From Candidatus Delongbacteria bacterium (GTDB lineage: Bacteria; UBA4055), in NCBI GenBank assembly GCA_016937995.1, contig JAFGVM010000053.1, positions 1 to 41,617 on the forward strand: DNA of 41,617 nucleotides. The letters are read 5' to 3'. Shown here piece after piece: positions 245-14,743 of the stretch (the stretch's first letter is position 1; every line of letters begins with the position of its first letter). A program made the translations under genes and the position numbers. The notes below the pieces were generated by a model. It worked only from the letters and a program-made list of their open reading frames with translations. It was not told the DNA's origin and made no database searches.

Positions 245-3200
245 ATGAAAAGAATTATAACTATCATGCTTGTACTTGTGACATGGTATTCAGTTGTTGC
301 AAATACCGGAAACGGATTTGATGTTCAATATAGCCGTATCTCTTCAGAAAAAATGCAATTGGATTTTATTATAGGGGACTATAGCCTAGAGAACGTTGAA
401 AAGGGTGAAAATACTTTTACTAAGATAAACTATGACGGTAAAGTAGTTACAAATGATAAAGGTTTTGCAGAATTACCATATGTAAGTAAAGCAGTACAAC
501 TTGAAGATCAAAGAAACGTTATTTTAGAGGTAAATTATAGTGAATATGAAGATATTTCGTTGGATTATCCACTTTTACCTTCCAGAGGAATTTTAACCAG
601 AAGTCAGAATATAAGTACTATTCCTTATAAAATATCTCAAGAATCTATCAAAGATGAATGGTATCCGGAAAAATTAGCTTATTCTGTTGATCCATTCATA
701 ATAAGAAATGTTAGAGGGACAAGTGTAGTAATTCAACCATTTCAGTATAATTCAGAAAAAAATATTCTAAGAGTCTTTAAAAATATTAAAGTGGATCTGG
801 TTTACAGTGATGAAAAACCTTTAAATCCGTTAAACAGAACGACAAATGCTGTAGAACCTGAAATGAATTCTATTTACAGATCATTATTCATTAATTATAA
901 TGAAAAGAAAGCTTTAAGATTAGCTGATGATGGTGAGATGTTGATCATTTATACTGATCAGAACGGTGGATCAGCAGCATTAGAACCATACATTAAATGG
1001 AAACGTGAAAAAGGTTTTACTGTAAATACTTTACAAGTTCCAAATGGTACTGATCTTGATGCAACTGAAACTGTAAAGAATGCTTACGATGCAAATCCTA
1101 ATATTCTATATGTTCAGCTAGTGGGAGACTGGGCAAATTTAAAGTCAAGATTCGAGTATTACTCAGTAACATCATCTGATGGATGCGAAGATCCGGTGCT
1201 AGGTCACGTTTCGGGAAGAGACGAATACCAGGACGTAATTATCGGCAGATTTTCTGTTCAAAGCGAAGAACAATTGTTAACACAGATAAATAAGGCGATA
1301 AACTATGAAAAAAATCCTGAATCTGATGGAACATGGTATAAAAAAGGACTGGTAAATGCATCGAATGAAGGTGACGGTATGGGTGATGACGGCGAAAGTG
1401 ATGAGCTGCATAATGAGATAATAAAGAATAATAAATTACTTTCATCAACTTATAATGAAGTGAATACCTGTTATCAATCCGCCGGAGATAACGGTACTGA
1501 TATTACCGGTTTTATCAATTCTGGACTATCAGCTGTAAATTATACCGGACATGGATATTATCAGTCGTGGTCAAATCCGAGTTTTAACAATACGGGTGTC
1601 AGTAATCTTACAAATGGAAGTAAGTTACCGTTCGTTATTTCAGTAGCCTGTTTAGTCGGTCATTTATCATACAGCAGCGATTGTTTTGCAGAAGCATGGT
1701 TGAAAAATGAGAATGGTGGAGCTGTTGTTGGATGGTTCTCAACAATAAGTCAACCATGGTTACCACCGATGAGAGGTCAGGATTATTTTTATGATATTCT
1801 GATCGGAGGTTATGATTATTTGCGTAATCCCGGATCTGGAACAACTACCACCGAACAGAGAACAACTTTTGGCGCATTAACAGTTAATGCGGCACATCTT
1901 ACTTTAGCAGAAGCACCAACTGATGTATCCACTTTAGCTACGATAGAAACATGGACAGTATTCGGAGATGCTTCGTTGCAGTTAAGAACAGACACTCCGA
2001 AACCGATAGTCTGTACGAATTCTACACTCCTCGCAGAAAATTACACAACAACTATATTGTCCTCTTCAGAACCTGTTGAAGGTGCAAGAGTTACATTATA
2101 TCAGGATGGAATAAACTTTACAGGACTAACAGATGAAAATGGGAATGTAAATATTGAGCATACTTTCACAGAAGGCGAGGTGACTATAACAGTTTCCGGT
2201 TTCAATCTTGAAACAGATCAGTTCATAACTCCGGTCATTGTCCTTGATGGTCCGTATGTAAAAATTAATAACTATACGATCAGTACAAGTACTTTCGGAG
2301 GGTCTGCGTTCTGTCAATTCGAACTCAAGAATATCGGAATAGAAAACAGTTCTGATGTTAATTTGAGTATTTCTACTGAGAGCCAATATATCAGTTTCAT
2401 AGATCAAGAGGAGTATTTTGGCAGTATTTCTACAGGTGATTCTGTAAGTATTTCCGATTGTATAAATTTTCAGATCGACAGTAATACTCCTGATCAGGAG
2501 AAAATAGAATTTATCTCACAAATCACTGATAATTTCACAAAAAGATCATATAATTCAAAATTCTATTTGTTGGTAAATTCACCAGACCTTAATATCAGTC
2601 ATTCGATCGATGGGGAAATGATCGATCCGGGAGATTCCAAAGATATAAGTTTCAGGATAATGAACAGTGGAAATGCAGATCTTGATAATGTTTTGATAAA
2701 TCTGACTCAAGATACAGGTTTTCCTGTTGTGATCACCGATCCAGGATACAGTTATCTAATTTCACAGGGTGAATTCGTGGATGTAACAGTGAATTGCAGT
2801 TTTGATACATCAATTCCTTTATCTTCATTTTTAGATTTTACACTTAAAATATCTGATGATAATGGTTTTTTAATTGAATATCCATTAACTGTTATCGCAG
2901 GTTTAACAGAAAGTTTTGAGACAGGTGATTTTACGAACAATGACTGGCAAATGACAGGTTCTAGCTGGATCATTGATGATAATGAAGTGTACAGTGGAAA
3001 TTATTCATCCAGATCTGGTTCGATCACTGATAATCAGACTTCTACAATGAAGCTTCAATATGAATTCGGAGATAACGGGAATATAAGCTTCTATAGAAAA
3101 ATTTCTTCAGAACCGAATTATGATTTTTTATATTTTTACATTGACGGAATTGAAAGATCAAAGTGGAGTGGAAGTATAGGGTGGTATAAATTTGATTATG

Positions 3201-3607
3201 ACGTGGAACCGGGTATACATGACCTGTCGTGGTCCTATAAAAAAGATGCCGGGATAAGTGGTTACAGCGACTGTGCGTGGATCGACAATATTCTTATCAG
3301 CGGTATTTATTCAGGAATTGAAAACTTATCTGAGAATACACCGAATACAACAAAATTATATAAAAATTATCCTAATCCGTTCAATCCGACAACAGACATT
3401 AAATTCTTTCTTGAGAAAGGATCAAATGTTAAATTATCAGTATACAATTCAAGAGGTCAGATCGTTAATGAACTGATAAATCAATACTTGAATAAAGGTA
3501 TGCATTTAATGAAGTATAATGCGGGTAATTTGAACAGCGGTGTTTATTATTATCTACTTGAAACAGATAATAATAAGCTGAGTGAGAAAATGCTCCTAAT
3601 AAAATGA
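245..3607 (+). CDS. Gingipain-like cysteine peptidase (family C25) with propeptide and T9SS type-A-like C-terminal sorting domain
   Basis: Signal peptide; C25 propeptide-like N-terminus; IIGRFS, NYTGHG (catalytic His), SVACL (catalytic Cys) and FGDASL motifs; C-terminal NYPNPFNPTT...SGVYYY...KMLLIK. Confidence 0.9.
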   Translation: MKRIITIMLVLVTWYSVVANTGNGFDVQYSRISSEKMQLDFIIGDYSLENVEKGENTFTKINYDGKVVTNDKGFAELPYVSKAVQLEDQRNVILEVNYSEYEDISLDYPLLPSRGILTRSQNISTIPYKISQESIKDEWYPEKLAYSVDPFIIRNVRGTSVVIQPFQYNSEKNILRVFKNIKVDLVYSDEKPLNPLNRTTNAVEPEMNSIYRSLFINYNEKKALRLADDGEMLIIYTDQNGGSAALEPYIKWKREKGFTVNTLQVPNGTDLDATETVKNAYDANPNILYVQLVGDWANLKSRFEYYSVTSSDGCEDPVLGHVSGRDEYQDVIIGRFSVQSEEQLLTQINKAINYEKNPESDGTWYKKGLVNASNEGDGMGDDGESDELHNEIIKNNKLLSSTYNEVNTCYQSAGDNGTDITGFINSGLSAVNYTGHGYYQSWSNPSFNNTGVSNLTNGSKLPFVISVACLVGHLSYSSDCFAEAWLKNENGGAVVGWFSTISQPWLPPMRGQDYFYDILIGGYDYLRNPGSGTTTTEQRTTFGALTVNAAHLTLAEAPTDVSTLATIETWTVFGDASLQLRTDTPKPIVCTNSTLLAENYTTTILSSSEPVEGARVTLYQDGINFTGLTDENGNVNIEHTFTEGEVTITVSGFNLETDQFITPVIVLDGPYVKINNYTISTSTFGGSAFCQFELKNIGIENSSDVNLSISTESQYISFIDQEEYFGSISTGDSVSISDCINFQIDSNTPDQEKIEFISQITDNFTKRSYNSKFYLLVNSPDLNISHSIDGEMIDPGDSKDISFRIMNSGNADLDNVLINLTQDTGFPVVITDPGYSYLISQGEFVDVTVNCSFDTSIPLSSFLDFTLKISDDNGFLIEYPLTVIAGLTESFETGDFTNNDWQMTGSSWIIDDNEVYSGNYSSRSGSITDNQTSTMKLQYEFGDNGNISFYRKISSEPNYDFLYFYIDGIERSKWSGSIGWYKFDYDVEPGIHDLSWSYKKDAGISGYSDCAWIDNILISGIYSGIENLSENTPNTTKLYKNYPNPFNPTTDIKFFLEKGSNVKLSVYNSRGQIVNELINQYLNKGMHLMKYNAGNLNSGVYYYLLETDNNKLSEKMLLIK

Positions 3608-6847: not shown

Positions 6848-6854
6848 TAATTCC

Positions 6855-6880
6855 GTAGGGGACGATTTCTTTTCGTCCCC
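6855..6880 (+). repeat. REP-like palindrome
   Basis: GTA-GGGGACGA-TTTCTTT-TCGTCCCC directly after the stop codon; one of seven related copies. Confidence 0.7.
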
Positions 6881-6972
6881 AAAACGATTTGAACATCCAA
6901 TATCCAACACGTTCCGATTGATCGGGGCAATGTCCAAGGTTTTCTGAATGCTTAACTCAGCATGGCAACAGT

Positions 6973-7003
6973 AAAAAAAAGACCCTGTTCTCAGGGTCTT
7001 TTT
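6973..7003. terminator. Bidirectional terminator; probably the original terminator of the cNMP-binding gene before integration
   Basis: A8-GACCCTG-TTCT-CAGGGTC-T5. Confidence 0.85.
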
Positions 7004-7025
7004 CACATCTATACCACAATATCCA

Positions 7026-7055
7026 CTATATTAAATAATTTCTTAGCATAAAGTT
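7026..7055 (-). repeat. Left att site: displaced 3' end of the cNMP-binding protein gene
   Basis: Minus strand reads AAC TTT ATG CTA AGA AAT TAT TTA ATA TAG (NFMLRNYLI*). It is 25/30 identical to 14069-14098, with an identical core CTTAGCATAAA at 7042-7052. Confidence 0.9.
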
Positions 7056-7156
7056 TGCACTAAATTTATTAAAGTTCATTAAAAGTCATTATATAAGGCT
7101 AAATAATCTATTTAGTTTTCAATAAGATTTATTAAATATTGTTTGAAATATCTTAA

Positions 7157-7178
7157 ATTTGTTGTTATATTGTTGTAA
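7157..7178 (+). repeat. Putative integrase arm-type site (left)
   Basis: ATTTGTTGTTATATTGTTGTAA, 20/22 identical to 14000-14021 inside the other end of the element. Confidence 0.6.
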
Positions 7179-7195
7179 ATTATACAGGTAAAGCA

Positions 7196-8305
7196 ATGAA
7201 TAAAAAGAAACCTAAAATATTTGATCTGATCAAAAAGCTTAATTCTCATTCTGATAAAATTAAGATCAGGGCAAGAGTAAAATATGATAAGGATAAGGAA
7301 CTAATCGGATATACAGTTTATTTAGATTACTATTATAAGAAGAATCGACAACTTGAATATTTAGATAAATCTTTACATTTGGACGGCTCAATTTCTTCCC
7401 TTCCTTCTGACAAAGAAAAGCTTAGACTAATCGAAGCTTTAAGGAATAAAAAACAACTTGAACTGATCGAACAAAAAACAGGCTTCAATCTTAAAGAAGT
7501 TCAAGACAAGGATTTTATTGATTATTTTTCTAAGAATTGTAAAGATTCTGTTTTCAAGGGAAGTCTTAAAAGATTTAAAATGTTTATAAAAAGAGATTCA
7601 ATAAGGTTTGATGAAATAGATCATAAGTTATGTAATAACTTTGCTGAATATTTAAAAAAAGAGATCAAACCAAATTCAGCAGTATCTTATTTTGCAAAAC
7701 TCAAAATTGTTTTGAATAAAGCAGTTAAAGAAAAACTTATTCAAGAAAATCCTGCAAATAATATTAGCTTGAAAGGTGAACAATCAAAGCGGGAATTTTT
7801 TAGTTTAGAAGAAATACAAATCTTGGCAAAAACCGAAAAGACAAATATAAACTCTTGTAATGGTTTTATATTTTGTTGTTTTGCAGGACTTAGATTTTCA
7901 GATGTAAAGAAGTTGAAATATTCAGATATAAAAGAAGGTTATATTGAATTTAAACAAAAGAAAACAGGGCAGAATGAAAGAATGAAATTAAGTTCTTCAG
8001 CATTAAAGATCATTGATAAGCAAAAGAAAACAGTTGTAAGTGATTATGTTTTTAATTTTATGCATTATTCACAAGTTGAAAGGCATTTAAAAGAGTGGGT
8101 AAAGAGAGCAGAAATAAATAAGAATATTACCTTCCATAGTTCAAGACATACTTTCGCGACCTTGTCCCTTACAAATGATATTGATATATTTACAGTATCA
8201 AAGCTTTTAGGACATCGCGATCTTAAAACAACTCAGATATATGCTAAACTAATTGATAAGAAGAAAGATCAGGCGATTGACAAACTACCTGAAATTGACA
8301 TTTAA
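7196..8305 (+). CDS. Tyrosine recombinase / site-specific integrase
   Basis: Catalytic set GLRFSD (R), QKKT (K), HSSRH (HxxR), LLGH and TQIYA (Y); N-terminal YLDYY arm-binding-like domain and SAM-like middle domain; adjacent to the att site. Confidence 0.95.
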   Translation: MNKKKPKIFDLIKKLNSHSDKIKIRARVKYDKDKELIGYTVYLDYYYKKNRQLEYLDKSLHLDGSISSLPSDKEKLRLIEALRNKKQLELIEQKTGFNLKEVQDKDFIDYFSKNCKDSVFKGSLKRFKMFIKRDSIRFDEIDHKLCNNFAEYLKKEIKPNSAVSYFAKLKIVLNKAVKEKLIQENPANNISLKGEQSKREFFSLEEIQILAKTEKTNINSCNGFIFCCFAGLRFSDVKKLKYSDIKEGYIEFKQKKTGQNERMKLSSSALKIIDKQKKTVVSDYVFNFMHYSQVERHLKEWVKRAEINKNITFHSSRHTFATLSLTNDIDIFTVSKLLGHRDLKTTQIYAKLIDKKKDQAIDKLPEIDI

Positions 8306-8322
8306 AACAAAGGCGGGCAAGA

Positions 8323-9327
8323 ATGAAAAAAGATATTGATTATTTCATCGAACAAGTAAAAAAAGATAATGATTATCTTAAAGTAAAATTCACAGAAGAA
8401 GAGATAAGCATATTAGCAAATGATCATTTTGAAACATACAAAAAAGGGAACAACCTTAAATATGAAACATTTGAAAAAGATGTTAGAAAAAGAAATGAAA
8501 AACTTACAAATAAATGGACTGAAGATGAAATCAAAGCTATTGCAGAAAGAAAATATAAATATACAAAAGAGAAGACTTATCAGATAAGAAATTATGAATT
8601 TTTCAGAAATAGAATTCTTCATAGGAAAGATATTCCTAAATCACAAAAAAATTTTGAGACTGAAAAATCTTATAAGGAAGAGCTAGACTTTATTATAAGG
8701 AATAATGCAATTGATGAATATTTGAAAGAAGAATCTAAGTGTCCTCTTTATTTTTCACTTGAAGAATATATCTCATATTGTACTTATGATCCTTATGGAT
8801 ATTCTCAATTAAATAATCAAGAAAAGATTATTTATCTAAAGAATAGGATTGTAAAAATCAAAAAAAAGTTAGCAAGGTATGAAATATTTAAGAAAACCAA
8901 ATATTATGATTGTGAACAATGTGATAATAACTATAAAGAGCAATGTAAAGAAAATGAAGATTGCATGAAATCACTATTACTCAGATTTGAACCTGATCTA
9001 GAAGCTTTTGAATTTGCAAGAGATCAAAGTAAAGATTTTAAGGACATGACATTAGAGATTGATAAAAGTAAAGATTCTGTTCTTAGAAAATGGATACGTT
9101 ACAGAGATGTAGGAAAAAGTAAATATTCAATGTTTAAATATACAACAACATACCATAGAGATTCGACAAAGAACAAACTAGAAGTATATTACGACAAGTT
9201 CACAAAAGAAAAATCTATAGAAAAATGTGCATATCGTACATTAGGAACTTATGTGCAAGAAACATATAATAGTACATTGTTAAAGATACAATACTCAGAC
9301 ATAAATAAACAAAAAATGCAAATTTAA
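8323..9327 (+). CDS. Hypothetical protein (element-borne, Cys cluster)
   Basis: 334-aa ORF 17 bp after the integrase; contains CEQC-x7-C-x5-C; no family recognised. Confidence 0.7.
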   Translation: MKKDIDYFIEQVKKDNDYLKVKFTEEEISILANDHFETYKKGNNLKYETFEKDVRKRNEKLTNKWTEDEIKAIAERKYKYTKEKTYQIRNYEFFRNRILHRKDIPKSQKNFETEKSYKEELDFIIRNNAIDEYLKEESKCPLYFSLEEYISYCTYDPYGYSQLNNQEKIIYLKNRIVKIKKKLARYEIFKKTKYYDCEQCDNNYKEQCKENEDCMKSLLLRFEPDLEAFEFARDQSKDFKDMTLEIDKSKDSVLRKWIRYRDVGKSKYSMFKYTTTYHRDSTKNKLEVYYDKFTKEKSIEKCAYRTLGTYVQETYNSTLLKIQYSDINKQKMQI

Positions 9328-9496
9328 GTAGACCCTACATTTAATAGCTAAATCCTGCCCTATTCTGCCTTATTTTATAAATATTGCCATTTATTGTAGC
9401 TACTTAACTTAGTTTTGACCTATAACCTATGTTTTTTTCTGCCCTGAAAAGCATTTTACCTTTTAATAAACATTAATAAATCAAAAAGGTGGTAAA

Positions 9497-9775
9497 ATGT
9501 TAGAACAAGAAAAACATTCGACAATCGAAAAAACAAAAAAGACTCATTTCACATTCAAGGAAACACAAGAATATCTTGGAGTTTCAAAGTCGACATTATA
9601 TAAATATAATATGTATAATGTTATTCCTTACTCAAAACCAAATGGTCGCAAGGTTTATTACAAAATTGAAGACCTGAATAATTACCTTCTTAGAAATCCA
9701 ATAAGATCAGAAGAACAGCTTGACAAAACAGCAGAATTGTATTTTCAGAACTGTCCTAAAGGTCAGGCAATATAA
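9497..9775 (+). CDS. Excisionase-like helix-turn-helix protein (HTH_17/AlpA-like)
   Basis: TFKETQEYLGVSKSTLYK...IPYSKPNGRKVYY...DLNNYL; AAGGTGG RBS. Confidence 0.88.
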   Translation: MLEQEKHSTIEKTKKTHFTFKETQEYLGVSKSTLYKYNMYNVIPYSKPNGRKVYYKIEDLNNYLLRNPIRSEEQLDKTAELYFQNCPKGQAI

Positions 9776-11214
9776 TGATATTAGAAGCTTGGCGACCCGA
9801 CACTAATCAAAGGGCAAAACAAAAACCTGAAGCCTTTAATATAAGTCGAGATAATGTAGATATATATTCATTATTATCTGACAACAAAGCAACTGACAAG
9901 GCAACGGCTGAAGCATGGCTTAAATGGATAAACTCAGAGTATGTTTATAATTATAGAACAGATCATTGGTATAAGTGGAATGGTAAATTTTGGGAACTCG
10001 ATCAGGTCGAAGAACATAAAGCTTCCTTGCTTGACTTTGCTAAGGATTTAAAGATCAGGGCAATGGAAGAACCGGAAAGGGACAGACAGAATCGAATTAT
10101 TAAGATTGCTATTGATCTTGAGAATGCAAAGACTTGGAAGGGACATTTTGAAGCTTCAGCAGTTCTAAATAATAGAATAGGTTTTAATCTTAACAGCGAT
10201 CTAATAAATTTACAGAACGGAACTTTTGACATTAAGAAAATGCAGTTCAAACAGCACTGCAAAGAAGAATATTTTAACTATTCCCTTCCCTTTGACTATT
10301 TGCCTGAAAAATCCTGTCCGACATGGATAAGCTTTTTAAATGATATATTTTTAGATAACAGTGATCTTATACATTATATAAATAAGGCAGTTGGTTATTC
10401 CCTGACTGCTGAAGTTCAAGAGCAATGTTTGTTTTTTTTATACGGAAGTGGACAAAATGGAAAATCTGTTTTCATTGAAACTTTGCTTCATATCTTTGGG
10501 GACTTTGGTATAAAAATACCTTTGACGGCTTTGTTATACAATAAGAACAATAATGAATCTTCACAACGCGAAATAATACGATTGAAAAACAAGCGGTTTA
10601 CAGTAGCTAATGAAACTGAAGAAAACGGACACCTTTCAGAAAGCATAATCAAAGACTTGACCGGTGGGGACACTTTGACAGGTCGGGAACTATACGAAAA
10701 AACGGCAGAGTTTAAAGCTACTCACAAGCTATGGATTTACGGCAATCATAAACCTATGATAAAAGGTTCTGATCTTGGTATTTGGCGAAGAATTAAGCTT
10801 ATTCCCTTCCTTTATACTGTTCCTAAAGATAAGATTGACAGGGAACTTCAAAGCAAACTGAAGAATGAACTTTCAGGCATATTCAATTGGATTTTAGAGG
10901 GTTTAAAACTATGGAAGAAAGAAGGTCTTGAACCTATTCCTGAAGAAATAACCAACGCAACGGCTGAATATAAAAACGAAATGGATATTATACAGCAATT
11001 TATAACTGATTGTTGCAACATTGCTGAAGGTCTTGAATGTAATTCTAAGGATTTATATAAGAGTTTTACAAATTGGTTAGAAGAAAGCGGAATAAAATCC
11101 CGTATTTCTAAAAATATGCTTACTAAAAAGTTAGCTGAAAAGGATTTCGACAATTACAGGGGCGGGAAGAATGTTTTGTTTTGGCTTAATATAGGATTAA
11201 AGAATGATTTATAA
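9775..11214 (+). CDS. P4-family phage/plasmid D5-like SF3 helicase (D5_N + helicase + C-terminal wHTH)
   Basis: WYKWNGKFW and INLQNGTFD (D5_N), Walker A GSGQNGKS, Walker B VANE, IKDLTGGD, motif C IYGN, GIWRRI. No N-terminal primase domain is visible. Confidence 0.92.
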   Translation: MILEAWRPDTNQRAKQKPEAFNISRDNVDIYSLLSDNKATDKATAEAWLKWINSEYVYNYRTDHWYKWNGKFWELDQVEEHKASLLDFAKDLKIRAMEEPERDRQNRIIKIAIDLENAKTWKGHFEASAVLNNRIGFNLNSDLINLQNGTFDIKKMQFKQHCKEEYFNYSLPFDYLPEKSCPTWISFLNDIFLDNSDLIHYINKAVGYSLTAEVQEQCLFFLYGSGQNGKSVFIETLLHIFGDFGIKIPLTALLYNKNNNESSQREIIRLKNKRFTVANETEENGHLSESIIKDLTGGDTLTGRELYEKTAEFKATHKLWIYGNHKPMIKGSDLGIWRRIKLIPFLYTVPKDKIDRELQSKLKNELSGIFNWILEGLKLWKKEGLEPIPEEITNATAEYKNEMDIIQQFITDCCNIAEGLECNSKDLYKSFTNWLEESGIKSRISKNMLTKKLAEKDFDNYRGGKNVLFWLNIGLKNDL

Positions 11215-11327
11215 AGTTAAAAGGTTAAAAAACTTATCAAAATACGGAAAGTCTTCTTATATGTTATCTTTTTTGATTTTACCGTAAAAATACAAATATG
11301 TTAACATTATAACACTAAATAAAGAAG

Positions 11328-11750
11328 ATGATTATGAATAAAAAAAATGTACAAATGAACACTATAAGTAAATCACAGCTTGAAGATGCGATAAATTTCA
11401 ATTTAGGAATTAAAACATTGATCGCTAAAGAACTGAAGGTTTGTAGAAATACTTTAGACAAGTATATAAAAAAATATAATCTTACTGATTGTTTGGAAGA
11501 ACAAAAGGAAGATATTCGCGACCTTGTTCGGTTTAATATTGTCGAAGCTATAAGGCAAGGGGACATTAAAGTTTCTCAATGGTATGCAGAAAGACAAATG
11601 TTTGAAGAATACGGCAATAAACAGCATATAGAAACCAATTTAAAGCTAAGTGAAAAACATAAAAAAATTATTGAAGAAAGCGAAAGAGCTGAACAAATGA
11701 CAGATGAAGAATTACAAGCTGAAATTGACAGAATGCAACAAGTATTATGA
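11328..11750 (+). CDS. HTH protein resembling a terminase small subunit (TerS-like #1)
   Basis: HTH IAKELKVCRNTLDKYIKK, then GDIKVSQWYAER...YGNKQHIE and a C-terminal MTDEEL motif; similar to the 12939 protein. Confidence 0.6.
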   Translation: MIMNKKNVQMNTISKSQLEDAINFNLGIKTLIAKELKVCRNTLDKYIKKYNLTDCLEEQKEDIRDLVRFNIVEAIRQGDIKVSQWYAERQMFEEYGNKQHIETNLKLSEKHKKIIEESERAEQMTDEELQAEIDRMQQVL

Positions 11751-12928
11751 TAGATATTGAAGCAATCAAATATAATAGTTCTTTATCGACAATATACGAA
11801 AGTATAACAGGGAACTCATTAAGGCAATCCGGTGGCAAGTTGTCGGGACTTTGTCCCTTTCATTCAGATAATAGGTCAGGGAACTTTTTTATATATCCTG
11901 ATAATACATATCATTGCTTTGCTTGTAACGAACACGGCGATATAATATCATTCATTGAAAAGACCCTTAATATATCATTCAAGGAAGCAGTTCAATATCT
12001 TGGCGGGGACATTACAACTAAAACAGTAAGAACGCGAAAGAAAGCACTTTACAAGCGAAAGGAAGCACCTGAAATATTAACAGATAAGACAAAAGAAATA
12101 TATCAGTTCTTTTTTTCTTCCTTGTCCATGACTTCAGAAGGATATAAATATTTGAAAGGTCGAGGGTTTAAAGATCAGATCATAAAAGAATTAAAAATCA
12201 AAAGCATTAAAGACCCGAATATGATAAGTGAAAAACTAAAGAATAATTTCAGCATTGAAGAATTAACAAGGTCGGGACTGTTTGACTTTGGGAAGAATAA
12301 AGAAGCATATTTTATATTTTATATTCCTTGCCTGATCTTTACAGCATTTGAAAACAAGAAACCTGTTTATTTTACAAGTCGGAACTTTGACAAGAAAAGG
12401 CGGTTCTTCAAATTACATAACAGAAAGCAGGATTATTTTAAGGGCGATCTTAATAAGAAAGAATTATATATATTTGAAGCGATTCTTGACGGACTTTCTT
12501 TTTATCAATTGACAGGCTTAAGCAATTTTATAATATTGTCAGGTTTAAATTATCGAATGTATGAAAAGATATTGAAAGAATATCCTGATAAAAGAATTAT
12601 TGTAGCTTTTGACAATGACAAGGCAGGGAAGAAAGCAGAAAATGACATATATATTCATTGTAAGACAAGACCTGAATGCTTTGATTATTTAGCATTGAAG
12701 AAAGCCAACGAAATAAATTATTCAGATTTTAAAGATATGAATGATCTTCTTAAACTTTATGAACTAAAGAAAGGGAGCATTGAAGTAATTAAATCAATTA
12801 TCAATGATCTGTCTGATCTTGACAGGGAACTCTTTGAAGAAAGGGCGGGAATTATGGAATATGAAGGCAATCAGACCCGACCTGAAGCAGAATGCAATGC
12901 ACTAATAAATATTTTAAATGAAATATAA
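11747..12928 (+). CDS. DnaG-like primase (CHC2 zinc finger + Toprim)
   Basis: CPFH-x17-CFAC zinc finger, YLKGRG, IFEAILD and AFDNDKAG Toprim motifs, KDMND; ATGA overlap with the previous gene. Confidence 0.88.
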   Translation: MIDIEAIKYNSSLSTIYESITGNSLRQSGGKLSGLCPFHSDNRSGNFFIYPDNTYHCFACNEHGDIISFIEKTLNISFKEAVQYLGGDITTKTVRTRKKALYKRKEAPEILTDKTKEIYQFFFSSLSMTSEGYKYLKGRGFKDQIIKELKIKSIKDPNMISEKLKNNFSIEELTRSGLFDFGKNKEAYFIFYIPCLIFTAFENKKPVYFTSRNFDKKRRFFKLHNRKQDYFKGDLNKKELYIFEAILDGLSFYQLTGLSNFIILSGLNYRMYEKILKEYPDKRIIVAFDNDKAGKKAENDIYIHCKTRPECFDYLALKKANEINYSDFKDMNDLLKLYELKKGSIEVIKSIINDLSDLDRELFEERAGIMEYEGNQTRPEAECNALINILNEI

Positions 12929-12938
12929 GGATAAAATT

Positions 12939-13340
12939 ATGAAGAAAGAACAGAAGGACAATTCAACTAAATTGAACAAATTATCACAAAAAAAGAAAGC
13001 ATTCATTCAGGTATTTGCAGGAACTTACGGCAATATTACAAAGACAGCTGAAGCAGTCGGAATTGATCGCGGGACATATTACAATTGGATAAAATCAGAT
13101 CTGGAATTCAAACAGGCTATAGAAGAAGTCGAGCCGGAAGAAATGCTTATTGATATAGTGGAAAGTCAACTTCTTGAAAAGATTAAGTCAGGCGATATAA
13201 CAGCGATTATATTCTTTCTGAAGACTAAGGGACAAAAACGCGGTTATACAGAAAAACAGCATATTGTACAAGAAGAAAAGAAAGGACTGACTATAATTGT
13301 TGAAAGTGAAGAACAGAAACGAATGATTGAAAAGATATAA
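12939..13340 (+). CDS. HTH protein resembling a terminase small subunit (TerS-like #2)
   Basis: KKKAFI...GNITKTAEAVGIDRGTYYNWIKSDLEF...ESQL...GDITAIIFFLKTKGQKRGYTEKQ, a pattern typical of phage TerS/phBC6A51-like HTH proteins. Start placed at the ATG after the AAGGA RBS (ORF track starts at 12918). Confidence 0.7.
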   Translation: MKKEQKDNSTKLNKLSQKKKAFIQVFAGTYGNITKTAEAVGIDRGTYYNWIKSDLEFKQAIEEVEPEEMLIDIVESQLLEKIKSGDITAIIFFLKTKGQKRGYTEKQHIVQEEKKGLTIIVESEEQKRMIEKI

Positions 13341-13346
13341 TATAAT

Positions 13347-13375
13347 TTGACATTGCTTAATAATTATGACATATT
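13347..13375 (+). promoter_or_regulatory. sigma70-type promoter for the cargo lipoprotein
   Basis: TTGACA (13347-13352), 17 bp spacer, CATATT (13370-13375) with a TG extension. Confidence 0.6.
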
Positions 13376-13406
13376 AAGAAAAAAATATATTCGATTGGAG
13401 TTAAAA

Positions 13407-13946
13407 ATGAAAAGATTATCTTTAATTTTGTTAATACTAAGTTTTTTAGTTATTGTTTTCAATGGCTGTGCTACAATACCTTCAGGTTATAAACCAATGA
13501 CAAATAAGGAAGGTGAGCAGTTATATATTGTACAAGATAAATTTAATGATGTCAGTTTCATTAGGCATAAATATTTTTTTGGAATATTTGCAAAGACACC
13601 AATTGAAATTTATGAAATTGAAAATAGAGCTTTAAGAATAGTTTTTAAATATGTTGGTAGTGATTGGATATTTTTTACAAAAGCTATAATACTAGGCAGT
13701 CAAGGCGATAAAATCGAGTTCAATTTTAAATCTTATGATAAAAAAACTGATGTCGATAAAAATGTATATGAATCGATAGATTTACTTTTGACAGATTCTG
13801 AAGTGAATAAAATATTAAGTATTTTATCTGAAAGTGGTATTAAAAAAGTTAGACTTTCAGGGAAGTACTACAAAGATTACGAATTAAATAATAATAAAGT
13901 TGTAGCTTTAATTGAAATCATAAAGCATTATTTAAAAAATAAGTAA
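13407..13946 (+). CDS. Lipoprotein of unknown function (element cargo)
   Basis: GGAG RBS before ATG 13407; signal peptide II MKRLSLILLILSFLVIVFNG-C; has its own promoter and terminator. Confidence 0.8.
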   Translation: MKRLSLILLILSFLVIVFNGCATIPSGYKPMTNKEGEQLYIVQDKFNDVSFIRHKYFFGIFAKTPIEIYEIENRALRIVFKYVGSDWIFFTKAIILGSQGDKIEFNFKSYDKKTDVDKNVYESIDLLLTDSEVNKILSILSESGIKKVRLSGKYYKDYELNNNKVVALIEIIKHYLKNK

Positions 13947-13967
13947 TATGAAATATATAAAACATAT

Positions 13968-13995
13968 AAAAGGGCTAAAATTAAGCCCTTTTTTT
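13968..13995 (+). terminator. Rho-independent terminator (possibly bidirectional)
   Basis: AAAAGGGCT-AAAATTA-AGCCCTTTTTTT. Confidence 0.85.
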
Positions 13996-13999
13996 ATTG

Positions 14000-14021
14000 A
14001 TTTGTTTCTATATTGTTGTAA
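14000..14021 (+). repeat. Putative integrase arm-type site (right)
   Basis: ATTTGTTTCTATATTGTTGTAA; direct repeat of 7157-7178, with an extra TGTTGTAAAT at 14037-14046. Confidence 0.6.
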
Positions 14022-14068
14022 GCACGTAAATATAAATGTTGTAAATCATTATTAATAAGTAATATAGA

Positions 14069-14098
14069 TCATATCAAATAATTCCTTAGCATAAAATT
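14069..14098 (-). repeat. Right att site, forming the restored 3' end of the target gene
   Basis: Minus strand reads AAT TTT ATG CTA AGG AAT TAT TTG ATA TGA (NFMLRNYLI*). Confidence 0.9.
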
Positions 14099-14530
14099 CG
14101 AATTCTGGATCCTTTCATACAGAGAAGCATATAATTTCTTAAGGATATTGTAACCGGCTTCATTATTATTTTCGAATAATGTTGTAAGTTTATTTCCGTC
14201 AATTCTTAGGATCTGTCCTTCAGTGATAGCTTTCGCAGATGCACTTCTTCTCTTTTTGATGATACAAGACATCTCACCAAAGTTGTCGCCCGGATTGATA
14301 GTATAAATAGTTTTATTCTCTTCAAGATCATCAGCAAAGAATTTAGAAGATACATAGATCTGAACTCTTCCTGAAACAACTATGAAAAGATCATAATCTG
14401 TCTCATCATCCTCTTTTAAAAGAACCTGGCCGGGAACAATAGATTCAACGCTGGTGAAAGCACTGATCTGCTTTAAAAGATTTTCTTTACAGTCTTTAAA
14501 TATATCCGCTTTCTTCAGAAGATCTACCAT
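14069..14530 (-). CDS. Stand-alone cyclic nucleotide-binding domain protein (integration target)
   Basis: LFIVVSGRV, GDNFGEMS and RRSASAKA cNMP-binding motifs; no Crp HTH; GGAG RBS before ATG 14530. Confidence 0.88.
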   Translation of the reverse strand: MVDLLKKADIFKDCKENLLKQISAFTSVESIVPGQVLLKEDDETDYDLFIVVSGRVQIYVSSKFFADDLEENKTIYTINPGDNFGEMSCIIKKRRSASAKAITEGQILRIDGNKLTTLFENNNEAGYNILKKLYASLYERIQNSNFMLRNYLI

Positions 14531-14636
14531 AATATACTCCAAATTGTCTAAAATATTTCCCTGTGAAACAATAATTTAACTCAAGATGGTTCTTAGTGCA
14601 ACGAAAATTAATAATAAAAAAAGATAAAAATTTTAT

Positions 14637-14743
14637 TTCTCACGGAGACACTAAGTCACGGAGGTATTGTTTATCAGATATAAAAAGGACGCATTCCTGC
14701 GTCCCGTACATAAACTCTTTGTGATCTCTGTGCCTCTTTGAGA
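14637..14743. repeat. Imperfect long inverted repeat (CACGGAG/CACAGAG units) enclosing a REP-like palindrome
   Basis: Left arm TCTCACGGAGACACTAAGTCACGGAG; right arm reverse complement TCTCAAAGAGGCACAGAGATCACAAAGAG; REP-like GTACGGGACGCA-GGAA-TGCGTCC on the minus strand at 14686-14709. Confidence 0.55.

What the first reader, a model, noticed from the sequence alone, without database searches (positions are those of the whole stretch)
7042..14095. Candidate new phage-satellite type: 7-kb island with integrase, Xis, separate helicase and primase, two TerS-like genes, and no capsid or relaxase
Seen: att repeats 7043 bp apart enclose eight co-oriented genes (int, unknown, xis-like HTH, D5/SF3 helicase, TerS-like, CHC2-Toprim primase, TerS-like, lipoprotein). 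Known: PICIs carry int/xis/pri-rep/terS and hijack helper-phage packaging, while Bacteroides NBU-type elements carry int/xis/DnaG-like primase plus a relaxase. Inference: this looks like an NBU-like backbone with phage-packaging hijack genes in place of the mobilisation module, in an FCB lineage where I know of no described satellites.
Basis: partly seen in the sequence, partly recalled or inferred. Interest (0 to 1): 0.85.

Follow-up and report, generated by a model that had tools for sequence, protein, structure and literature searches.

The report
Phage-satellite-like island in Delongbacteria
A 7-kb mobile island in an uncultured Delongbacteria genome carries its own integration and DNA-replication genes plus two phage small-terminase-type genes but no virus-particle or conjugation genes, so it most likely spreads by riding in the capsids of a helper phage, although packaging has not been shown.

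Summary
Window 7056-14060 is a precise insertion in the 3' end of a cNMP-binding gene. A same-genus genome has the empty site, and the element-borne copy restores the gene's last nine codons.

ORF7 belongs to a true phage small-terminase (TerS) family. In 227 related loci its homologue usually sits directly before a large terminase. ORF5 is a diverged paralogue of ORF7 (hhalign 99.7%). No relaxase, large terminase (TerL), capsid or defence family was detected. ORF2 is an ORFan.

Sister islands of 4-6 kb with the same plan (int, unknown, HTH_17, variable replication module, terminal TerS) occur in Flavobacterium, Chryseobacterium, Paludibacteraceae, Saprospiraceae and Kapaibacteria, three with their own flanking direct repeats. 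One 4.3-kb relative is a circular-looking contig. Bacteroidales relatives of one sister island carry MobC plus a relaxase where that island has TerS.

Best reading (0.55): a PICI-like, TerS-only phage satellite. No junction reads, excess coverage or helper phage were found. The layout is a known kind (PICI, VEIME) in a new phylum, with unusual features.

The parts
7018..7055 (.). attL. It holds the displaced original 3' end of the cNMP-binding gene (encodes NFMLRNYLI*). The crossover lies within about 7037-7055.
7171..7179 (+). TGTTGTAAA motif, a candidate arm-type integrase site. Further copies lie at 14014-14022 and 14037-14045.
   Evidence: all four TGTTGTAAR sites of the 41.6-kb window lie at 7171-14188. 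The wider pattern is not enriched overall (6 found against 3.2 expected). Function is inferred.
7196..8305 (+). Tyrosine integrase (SAM_5 plus catalytic domain). The R..HxxR..H..Y residues are visible in the sequence.
8323..9327 (+). ORF2, a 334-aa Lys/Glu/Tyr-rich ORFan of unknown function.
   Evidence: no family; only itself among 1175 candidates; no usable hit; no PADLOC hit
9328..9496 (.). 169-nt intergenic region ahead of the xis-to-ORF8 gene block. Presumed control region.
   Evidence: Only weak inverted repeats. Inferred.
9497..9775 (+). HTH_17 protein, excisionase/AlpA-like.
   Evidence: 36.2 bits against cut-off 27; phrog_66, excisionase/regulator, 1.9e-6; TIGR01764, 24.4 bits, below cut-off 28.8
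9775..11214 (+). D5_N / SF3 helicase of the P4-primase C-terminal family, without a primase domain.
11328..11750 (+). ORF5, a diverged TerS-superfamily HTH protein. The database calls it from 11334 (138 aa).
11747..12928 (+). DnaG-like primase: CHC2 zinc ribbon plus Toprim, no helicase-binding C-terminus.
12918..13340 (+). ORF7, a small terminase subunit (PF13022 family). The database calls it from 12939 (133 aa).
13347..13946 (+). ORF8, lipoprotein-like cargo protein. The likely start is at 13407, giving MKRLSLILLILSFLVIVFNGC...
   Evidence: sequence; nearest Atlas clusters are unnamed or 'Lipoprotein'; no family
13968..13992 (+). Terminator-like hairpin plus T run that closes the gene block.
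14061..14098 (.). attR. The element-borne copy now forms the 3' end of the target gene.
14069..14542 (-). Target gene: cNMP-binding-domain protein, kept intact by the insertion.

Best explanation
The island is an intact, self-integrating and self-replicating hitcher element of a Candidatus Delongbacteria chromosome. It most likely transfers as a phage satellite of the PICI-like, TerS-only kind.

Shown: it inserted site-specifically into the 3' end of a cNMP-binding gene and carries a copy of that gene's end. It encodes a tyrosine integrase, an HTH_17 excisionase/AlpA-like protein, a split P4-type replication pair (SF3 helicase plus DnaG-like primase) and two members of a phage small-terminase superfamily. 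It has no large terminase, capsid, tail, lysis or relaxase gene.

Inferred: on infection by, or induction of, a pac-type helper phage, Int and the HTH_17 protein excise the element. The helicase and primase replicate it. ORF7, possibly together with or alongside ORF5, binds a pac site on the element and recruits the helper's large terminase, so that element DNA is packaged into helper capsids. After injection into a new cell, Int reinserts it at the conserved gene end.

Unknown: the roles of ORF2 and the ORF8 lipoprotein. They are candidates for helper interference or surface exclusion.
For: Discrete mobile element: att repeats, empty site and restored gene end.

Gene functions.

ORF7 is a true phage TerS family.
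- PF13022 scores above its cut-off and six PHROG TerS families match.
- 67 of 80 GTDB loci with a homologue have a following ORF. Among these, Pfam tallies are Terminase_3 16, Terminase_6N 15 and TerL_ATPase 11.
- 50 of the 67 fall in three BLAST clusters of 378-815 aa.
- 140 of 160 metagenome and IMG/VR loci also hold a TerL of those clusters.
- The top PDB fold matches are weak but coherent: 2ao9, 3zqq, 3hef, 7joq.

ORF5 is a paralogue of ORF7.
- BLASTP E 0.001.
- Profile-profile probability 99.7%, E 7e-27, over 104 columns.
- The best BFVD fold match is a 'Terminase small subunit' (E 4e-4, TM 0.61).

The same architecture recurs without TerL in L056/L057, L131, L066, L110, L120 and L135. 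In L056, L131 and L110 direct repeats bound 4.4-6 kb islands that end just after TerS, or after one further ORF; L110 sits at a tRNA-Met.

L140 is a 4399-nt contig with a 123-nt terminal overlap. It holds HTH_17, TerS and an integrase, and no TerL.

A 1319-nt metagenome contig keeps the primase-TerS order at 68% and 80% identity.

The flanks are chromosomal, so this is not part of a prophage.
Against: - No direct sign of excision or packaging. In the source run one contig spans the integrated island at depth 17.1, against 17.6 for the flank. No attP or attB joint was seen in three runs. These were contigs only, which hide rare forms.
- No helper. The 97%-complete genome has no TerL (PF03237, PF03354, PF04466) or HK97 capsid (PF05065) match, and no TerL by tblastn.
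- None of the 80 best IMG/VR hits of the TerS family is a small integrase-plus-TerS contig.
- No capsid-size or packaging-interference gene is recognisable.
- A TerS-fold HTH protein could act as a regulator.
- Close relatives of the element's primase and TerS exist only in assemblies whose DNA I could not fetch.
Confidence: 0.55

Rival explanations
1. It is an integrative element that does not depend on phage capsids. It excises and replicates on its own and moves by conjugative mobilisation through an unrecognised oriT with a relaxase supplied in trans, or by vesicles or transformation. The two TerS-fold proteins would then serve as DNA-binding regulators or replication and partition accessories.
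For: - The backbone is shared with Bacteroidales mobilisable elements, in which relatives of a sister island's primase are followed by MobC/NikA plus a relaxase.
- No helper phage or packaging evidence was found.
- The fold of ORF5 also resembles generic HTH regulators.
Against: - No relaxase, MobC or Mob_Pre family hit any of the eight ORFs at E <= 0.1.
- The ORF7 family is overwhelmingly TerL-linked in phages: 140 of 160 and about 50 of 67 loci.
- In the sister islands TerS occupies exactly the slot that the mobilisation cassette has elsewhere. That argues for a transfer role, not a regulatory one.
Confidence: 0.25
2. It is a decayed prophage remnant that kept only its integration, replication and small-terminase genes.
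For: All recognisable genes have phage homologues. No helper phage is known.
Against: - All eight ORFs are intact and tightly packed, some with overlapping stop and start codons.
- The att sites are precise and the target gene is restored.
- There are no structural-gene fragments.
- The same compact plan recurs, bounded by direct repeats, in unrelated hosts.
- A circular-looking 4.3-kb relative exists.
Confidence: 0.07
3. It is a satellite whose two TerS paralogues have different jobs. One packages the element. The other blocks or retargets the helper's own small terminase, or each paralogue serves a different helper phage.
For: - The island has two diverged paralogues: 28% identity over 99 residues, with profile homology.
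- Tandem TerS-like ORFs also occur in the Saprospiraceae island L066.
Against: Nothing here tests it. In L066 the pairs may be an assembly duplication.
Confidence: 0.2

Closest known systems
PICIs with their own small terminase (pac-type SaPI-like), as modelled by SatelliteFinder (de Sousa et al. 2023, PMC10085698; passages read)
   Same: Integrase at one end, then a small HTH regulator/excisionase, a primase-replicase module, TerS near the far end and accessory genes after it. No tail, lysis or other structural genes. The size is about 7 kb, against a PICI median of 9.5 kb.
   Different: - The host is a candidate FCB phylum, whereas more than 99.9% of detected PICIs were in Proteobacteria or Firmicutes.
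- No recognisable capsid-morphogenesis or interference gene.
- Primase and helicase are separate genes.
- There are two TerS paralogues.
- It integrates in the 3' end of a protein-coding gene.
- Its proteins are not shown to match SatelliteFinder's profiles, because the program was not run.
- Induction and packaging are untested.
VEIMEs, virion-encapsidated integrative mobile elements of marine bacteria (Eppley et al. 2022, PMC9618062; passages read)
   Same: Small integrase-bearing elements with primase/helicases, AlpA-like regulators, excisionases and TerS homologues. Some were found integrated in Flavobacteria.
   Different: VEIMEs are defined by recovery from virus particles, and this element has no such evidence. 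Whether any VEIME is homologous could not be checked, because the supplementary datasets are closed.
NBU-type and related Bacteroidales integrative mobilisable elements. The NBU1 gene order is recalled, not read. NBU1 is cited as mobilisable in PMC11389934.
   Same: The order integrase, unknown ORF, small HTH, then helicase and primase. Relatives of the sister island L056 show this backbone with MobC/NikA plus a relaxase.
   Different: There is no relaxase or MobC here. TerS-family genes stand in that position. The replication genes of this island (D5-type helicase, DnaG-like primase) are not those of L056 (DUF3987, DUF6371).
Satellite phage P4 (features recalled)
   Same: The helicase belongs to the P4-family primase C-terminal domain (TIGR01613). 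Both are integrase-bearing, self-replicating islands.
   Different: No psu/delta/sid-like genes were detected. The primase is a separate DnaG-like protein. It carries TerS genes, which as I recall P4 lacks.

Membership tests
PICI (five core components; passages of PMC10085698) | Integrase | tested here: met
   PF00589 77.2 bits, PF13102 65.5 bits
PICI | Regulation module homologous to alpA, merR or stl | tested here: inconclusive
   The HTH_17 protein hits phrog_66, 'excisionase and transcriptional regulator'. No AlpA family was listed at E <= 0.1. No repressor was identified.
PICI | Primase-replicase module | tested here: met
   TIGR01613 helicase plus CHC2/Toprim primase, as two genes
PICI | Capsid-morphogenesis or packaging-interference gene | tested here: inconclusive
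   No family matched. ORF2, ORF8 and ORF5 could be analogues. Type B PICIs lack one core component.
PICI | Small terminase subunit | tested here: met
   ORF7; ORF5 as paralogue
PICI | No tail, holin or other structural genes in the element | tested here: met
PICI | Induced by and packaged with a helper phage | not testable with these tools
   Only contigs of three runs were available and they show no junctions. No helper is present in the genome.
PICI | Detected by the SatelliteFinder/MacSyFinder model | not tested
   The program is not available here.
VEIME | Element DNA recovered from virus particles | not testable with these tools
   Among the 80 best IMG/VR hits of the TerS family there is no small integrase-plus-TerS contig. 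Supplementary datasets are closed.
NBU-type integrative mobilisable element | Relaxase (with oriT) encoded on the element | tested here: not met
   No PF03432, PF01076, PF05713 or PF21983 hit in any of the eight ORFs at E <= 0.1. The same families are readily found in L350, L352, L353 and L355. oriT was not searched for.
P4-like satellite | psu, delta, sid and epsilon genes together with alpha (component names from the passages) | tested here: not met
   Only an alpha-like helicase domain is present (TIGR01613). No other family was listed.
Phage small terminase, PF13022 / phBC6A51-type (ORF7) | Family score above the curated cut-off, and gene neighbourhood with TerL in relatives | tested here: met
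   33.1 bits against 27.9. About 50 of 67 and 140 of 160 loci have TerL.
Phage small terminase (ORF7, ORF5) | Ring oligomer that binds pac DNA and TerL | not tested
   Only monomer models were made.

The most novel reading that the evidence does not exclude
Across the FCB group there may be a family of 4-7 kb hitcher elements built on one backbone (SAM_5 integrase, variable ORF, HTH_17, exchangeable replication module) whose last cassette decides the vehicle: MobC plus a relaxase for conjugative helpers, or TerS for phage helpers. The Delongbacteria member would then be a phage-riding form with two diverged TerS paralogues, one for its own packaging and one to subvert the helper's terminase or to use a second helper.
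Probability: 0.3. Interest if true: 0.75.

Novelty: new variant of a known kind. Interest (0 to 1): 0.5.

Why it matters
Phage satellites are well described mainly in Proteobacteria and Firmicutes. This element and its sister islands suggest a compact TerS-only form in the FCB group, including a candidate phylum with no cultured members and no known phages.

The apparent exchange of a relaxase cassette for a TerS gene on one backbone would show how a hitcher element switches between conjugative and viral helpers.

Two sister islands lie in cultured strains (Flavobacterium bernardetii F-372 and Chryseobacterium ginsengisoli JCM 18019), so the idea can be tested at the bench.

This scan has already flagged similar int / primase-helicase / TerS islands in several other phyla. 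The general pattern is therefore not a surprise.

Tried and rejected
- Helicase as a marker for sister elements. 17 GTDB and 10 IMG/VR loci at 34-43% identity share nothing else with the island, apart from distant integrases in three loci and a weak primase hit in one.
- Primase profile A3. It found only distant primases in IMG/VR (33 loci, 21-44%) and two in GTDB.
- The element's phylum. It holds only 16 species genomes, and the other 15 gave only chromosomal dnaG-type matches.
- Laying contigs of runs X1-X3. They gave no attP or attB joints and no excess depth. The three 'skips' listed have short sides (21-30 nt) and lie outside the att sites. X2 and X3 hold identical pieces of both island and flank, so they show the same organism rather than a free element.
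- Complex prediction for ORF7 with ORF5. No answer, score 0.00, and no evidence either way.
- VIA-align wide search with the ORF5 model. Only generic HTH domains. Sf6 TerS 3hef scored Z 4.3 at rank 14, within the noise.
- Foldseek against the PDB. No match at E <= 0.001 for either model. Sequence and profile searches of the PDB were empty or weak.
- ORF2. No homologue, no Atlas lead, no PADLOC hit. Second-position ORFs of the sister islands are not detectably related to it or to one another.
- ORF8. No family and no defence hit.
- No Rfam family. No convincing iterons or tandem repeats in the intergenic regions.
- Sigma-70-type promoter scan. Uninformative in this AT-rich DNA: 50 found against 39.8 expected.
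- Scan with L056's DUF3987 protein. It returned only itself.
- TerS tree. It is a quick, weakly supported tree. Island-borne TerS are interspersed with TerL-linked ones (7 label changes, only 1 forced by well-supported branches), so the number of recruitments from phages cannot be given.
- Earlier-findings look-ups by place and by sequence found nothing.
- Literature. No paper holds 'Delongbacteria' with 'satellite'. None holds satellite + Bacteroides + small terminase + integrase + primase. Two papers hold SatelliteFinder with 'Bacteroid', and neither describes such elements.


Full report
**Observation**

The window has eight co-oriented + strand ORFs between 7196 and 13946. They are flanked by an imperfect direct repeat at 7018-7055 and 14061-14098: 31 of 38 positions identical, 7043 nt apart. 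The repeat is stronger than chance. Its local alignment score is 24, against a maximum of 20 in 1000 shuffles and 18 in 224 real pairs of window segments at the same spacing.

Comparison with relatives settles the matter.
- In the same-genus genome G001, a terminator hairpin, a single att-like site and the cNMP-binding gene are contiguous (L014).
- In G005 and G011, of other genera in the family, the DUF302 gene and the cNMP-binding gene are direct neighbours.
- The right repeat forms the last nine codons of the cNMP-binding gene on the minus strand. The left repeat is the displaced original end. Both, and the intact G001 gene, encode ...NFMLRNYLI*.

So window 7056-14060 is a site-specific insertion that restores its target gene. 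There is no tRNA in the window. GC is lowest over int and ORF2 (about 0.26) and stays below the flanks over most of the island.

**Genes**

- Int has the SAM_5 and catalytic domains, and the R..HxxR..H..Y residues are visible in its sequence.
- ORF2 (334 aa) matches no family.
- ORF3 is an HTH_17 protein. It has PHROG hits to excisionase/regulator families and an excisionase-domain score just below the cut-off.
- ORF4 has D5_N, DUF5906 and Pox_D5. It scores 274.5 bits on TIGR01613 (P4-family primase C-terminal domain, cut-off 108.7). It aligns only to the C-terminal halves of PHROG primase-helicases.
- ORF6 is a DnaG-like primase with a CHC2 zinc ribbon and Toprim.
- ORF7 scores 33.1 bits on PF13022 (cut-off 27.9) and matches six PHROG small-terminase families (best E 3.6e-11).
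- ORF5 alone is weak: PF13022 at 17.7 bits and one TerS PHROG at E 0.003.
- ORF8 has a signal peptide ending in a Cys lipobox, by eye. Its nearest Atlas clusters are unnamed or called 'Lipoprotein'.

No relaxase, MobC, TerL, portal, capsid, tail or lysis family appears at E <= 0.1. There is no PADLOC hit of note. Stop and start codons overlap at xis/helicase, ORF5/primase and primase/ORF7. A terminator-like hairpin follows ORF8.

**Are the two small HTH proteins small terminases?**

For ORF7 I collected 47 homologues, aligned 34 of them (A1) and fetched loci from three collections.
- GTDB genomes: 135 relatives were found and the best 80 kept. 67 of the 80 have a following + strand ORF of at least 100 aa; the other 13 end at a contig edge. 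Pfam tallies over those 67 neighbours are Terminase_3 16, Terminase_6N 15 and TerL_ATPase 11, with the matching nuclease domains at 12, 8 and 11. The tallies may overlap. By BLAST, 50 of the 67 fall in three clusters of 378-815 aa.
- Metagenome and IMG/VR: of 160 loci, 140 contain a member of those clusters.
- Structure: the AlphaFold model of ORF7 (pLDDT 73.9) has as its best PDB matches the nine-chain phage protein 2ao9 (E 0.04) and then the small terminases 3zqq, 3hef and 7joq. None reaches E 0.001.

ORF7 therefore belongs to a real phage TerS family.

ORF5 has 143 representative relatives at E <= 0.001.
- A profile of 60 of them matches the ORF7 profile with probability 99.7% (E 7e-27, 104 columns).
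- Of the 60 members, 9 hit phrog_309 and smaller numbers hit five other TerS PHROGs. The window's own ORF5 reaches none at E 0.001.
- Its model is confident (pLDDT 92.7). The best viral fold matches are a 'Terminase small subunit' (E 4e-4, TM 0.61, rmsd 2.4 over 100 columns) and an HTH protein of a Flavobacterium phage. PDB matches are weak, again led by 2ao9.

ORF5 is thus a diverged paralogue in the same superfamily. Its function as a terminase subunit is less certain than that of ORF7.

**Context and host**

The flanks encode a C25 peptidase with a type IX secretion sorting domain, BatD, TPR and DUF302 proteins on one side. On the other side they encode the cNMP-binding protein, a glyoxalase, a class II aminoacyl-tRNA synthetase (named asparagine--tRNA ligase on its cluster members), an aldehyde ferredoxin oxidoreductase, ThiF and MatE. 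These flanks are syntenic across the family, so the island is not part of a larger prophage.

Cluster members at least 90% identical to the asparaginyl-tRNA synthetase are named Candidatus Delongbacteria (taxonomy). In the genome collection the phylum has only 16 species, in a single family. None of the other 15 has the island's primase.

The genome is 97% complete in 99 contigs. It has a single copy of the island's helicase. It has no match to three TerL families or to the HK97 capsid family, and no TerL by tblastn with the 67 neighbour proteins. No helper prophage is therefore visible. A lytic or unbinned helper cannot be excluded.

**Relatives of the element**

The helicase's nearest kin (34-43% identical, in Phycisphaerae, Ignavibacteria, Kapaibacteria and others) lie in unrelated contexts.

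The primase has only four close relatives, at 69, 67, 48 and 45% identity. After these come chromosomal DnaG proteins at 32% or less. One 1319-nt metagenome contig keeps the primase-TerS order at 68% and 80% identity (L136). A 67% primase and a 64% TerS are each recorded on 11-12 contigs whose longest is 6464 nt. That hints at a discrete sister element of about 6.5 kb, but its DNA could not be fetched.

**A wider class**

A minority of ORF7-family genes in GTDB genomes are not followed by TerL. They close small integrase islands instead.
- L056/L057 (Paludibacteraceae): int, 289-aa unknown, HTH_17, DUF3987, DUF6371 / zinc-ribbon primase, TerS, then a chromosomal GTPase gene. Bounded by exact 23-nt repeats 5957 nt apart.
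- L110 (Kapaibacterium): int, HTH_17, Phage_CRI-type Rep, TerS, one ORF, then tRNA-Met. Bounded by exact 17-nt repeats 4406 nt apart.
- L120 (Flavobacterium bernardetii): int, unknown, HTH_17, Phage_CRI-like protein, unknown, TerS, then DUF488 and a resolvase.
- L131 (Paludibacteraceae): int ... TerS, then peptide deformylase. A 42-nt, 88% repeat lies at both ends.
- L066 (Saprospiraceae): int, unknown, HTH_17, unknowns, then four TerS-like ORFs.
- L135 (Chryseobacterium ginsengisoli): similar, with a weak integrase match.
- L140: a 4399-nt metagenome contig whose ends overlap by 123 nt. It holds HTH_17, TerS (52% identical) and a tyrosine integrase, and no TerL. This is as expected for an excised circle or a concatemer.

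The second-position ORFs are not detectably related to one another. In a quick and weakly supported tree, island-borne TerS are scattered among TerL-linked ones. For example, L056/L057 sit next to a TerL-linked TerS from the same bacterial family.

**The mobilisation-versus-packaging swap**

Ten of 150 other Bacteroidales genomes sampled have a relative of L056's primase. I fetched nine of these loci; a short contig was left out. I then scanned ten downstream proteins from six of the loci.
- L352 and L353 have the same backbone by tblastn (L352: int, HTH_17, DUF3987, primase; L353: int, DUF3987, primase), followed by a MobC/NikA protein and a PF03432 relaxase.
- L350 has a Mob_Pre relaxase.
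- L355 has a NikA/MobC protein.
- L349 has a second integrase.
- L357 has an unrelated protein.

So on a shared backbone, a relaxase cassette in some elements corresponds to a TerS gene in L056. It is not shown for the Delongbacteria island, whose replication genes differ.

**Direct evidence of mobility**

Three public runs hold the sequence. In the probable source run, one contig spans 6858-15600 with the island integrated, at depth 17.1 against 17.6 for the left flank. Two other runs, one from another study, hold identical pieces of both island and flank. No att junctions appear. Contigs hide rare forms, so this neither supports nor refutes excision.

**Mechanism**

Shown: site-specific insertion with target restoration; intact genes for integration, excision and replication; two TerS-superfamily genes; no particle or relaxase genes; and a recurrent architecture in other hosts.

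Inferred: excision by Int and the HTH_17 protein, replication by the helicase and primase, and recruitment of a helper's large terminase by ORF7 to a pac site on the element. ORF5 would act as a partner, decoy or second-helper adaptor.

I put 0.55 on transfer as a phage satellite, 0.25 on a capsid-independent hitcher, and 0.07 on a prophage remnant.

**Comparison with known systems**

By function the island has four of the five PICI core components and none of the forbidden ones (definitions from passages of PMC10085698). Its regulator is only loosely AlpA-like. No morphogenesis or interference gene is recognisable. The SatelliteFinder model was not run.

VEIMEs share the gene repertoire and were reported in Flavobacteria (PMC9618062), but they are defined by recovery from particles.

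The island fails the NBU-type test because it has no relaxase, and the P4 test because it has no psu/sid/delta.

I file it as a new variant of the PICI-like kind. It works like a PICI, and membership is unproven.

This scan's earlier notes describe similar islands in Chlorobiota, Planctomycetota, Chloroflexota, CPR and Nitrospirota. That lowers the surprise, but it fits a broad, undescribed spread of TerS-bearing mini-satellites.

Noticed in passing
L014 (G001) about 1120-2170, corresponding to window about 6850-6970: The same-genus genome has an extra ORF of about 1 kb between the DUF302 gene and the terminator. The window has only about 120 nt there. The spot next to the att site therefore varies independently of the island.
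   Followed up: partly
L140 1-4399: A metagenome contig with a 123-nt terminal overlap (a unit of about 4.28 kb). It encodes HTH_17, a 218-aa unknown, TerS, a tyrosine integrase and an HTH protein. It is a candidate excised or concatemeric mini-satellite.
   Followed up: partly
L066 8991-10802: Four consecutive TerS-like ORFs in a Saprospiraceae integrase island: two different genes, each present twice. This is either a real tandem duplication or an assembly repeat.
   Followed up: no
L120 and L130 (two contigs of Flavobacterium bernardetii F-372), 9222-11544: The same block (239-241-aa unknown, TerS, DUF488, resolvase) occurs twice in one isolate genome. In L120 it follows an int / HTH_17 / Rep-like set. 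In L130 the upstream genes differ.
   Followed up: partly
L056 and L057: Two Paludibacteraceae MAGs, listed as different species representatives, carry an island with identical TerS and DUF3987 proteins. This suggests recent transfer, or the same element binned twice.
   Followed up: no
window 245-3607: A 1120-aa C25-family peptidase with propeptide and a type IX secretion C-terminal sorting domain. This fits an FCB-group host.
   Followed up: no
window 8909-14717 (run X3): Short contigs from a hot-spring metagenome of a different study match parts of the island and its right flank with no differences. The same strain, with the island in place, seems to occur in distinct habitats.
   Followed up: partly
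window 6975-7004: A two-way terminator hairpin just outside attL. It is conserved in position next to attB in G001. It would have ended the cNMP-binding gene's transcript before the insertion and is now 7 kb away from that gene.
   Followed up: partly
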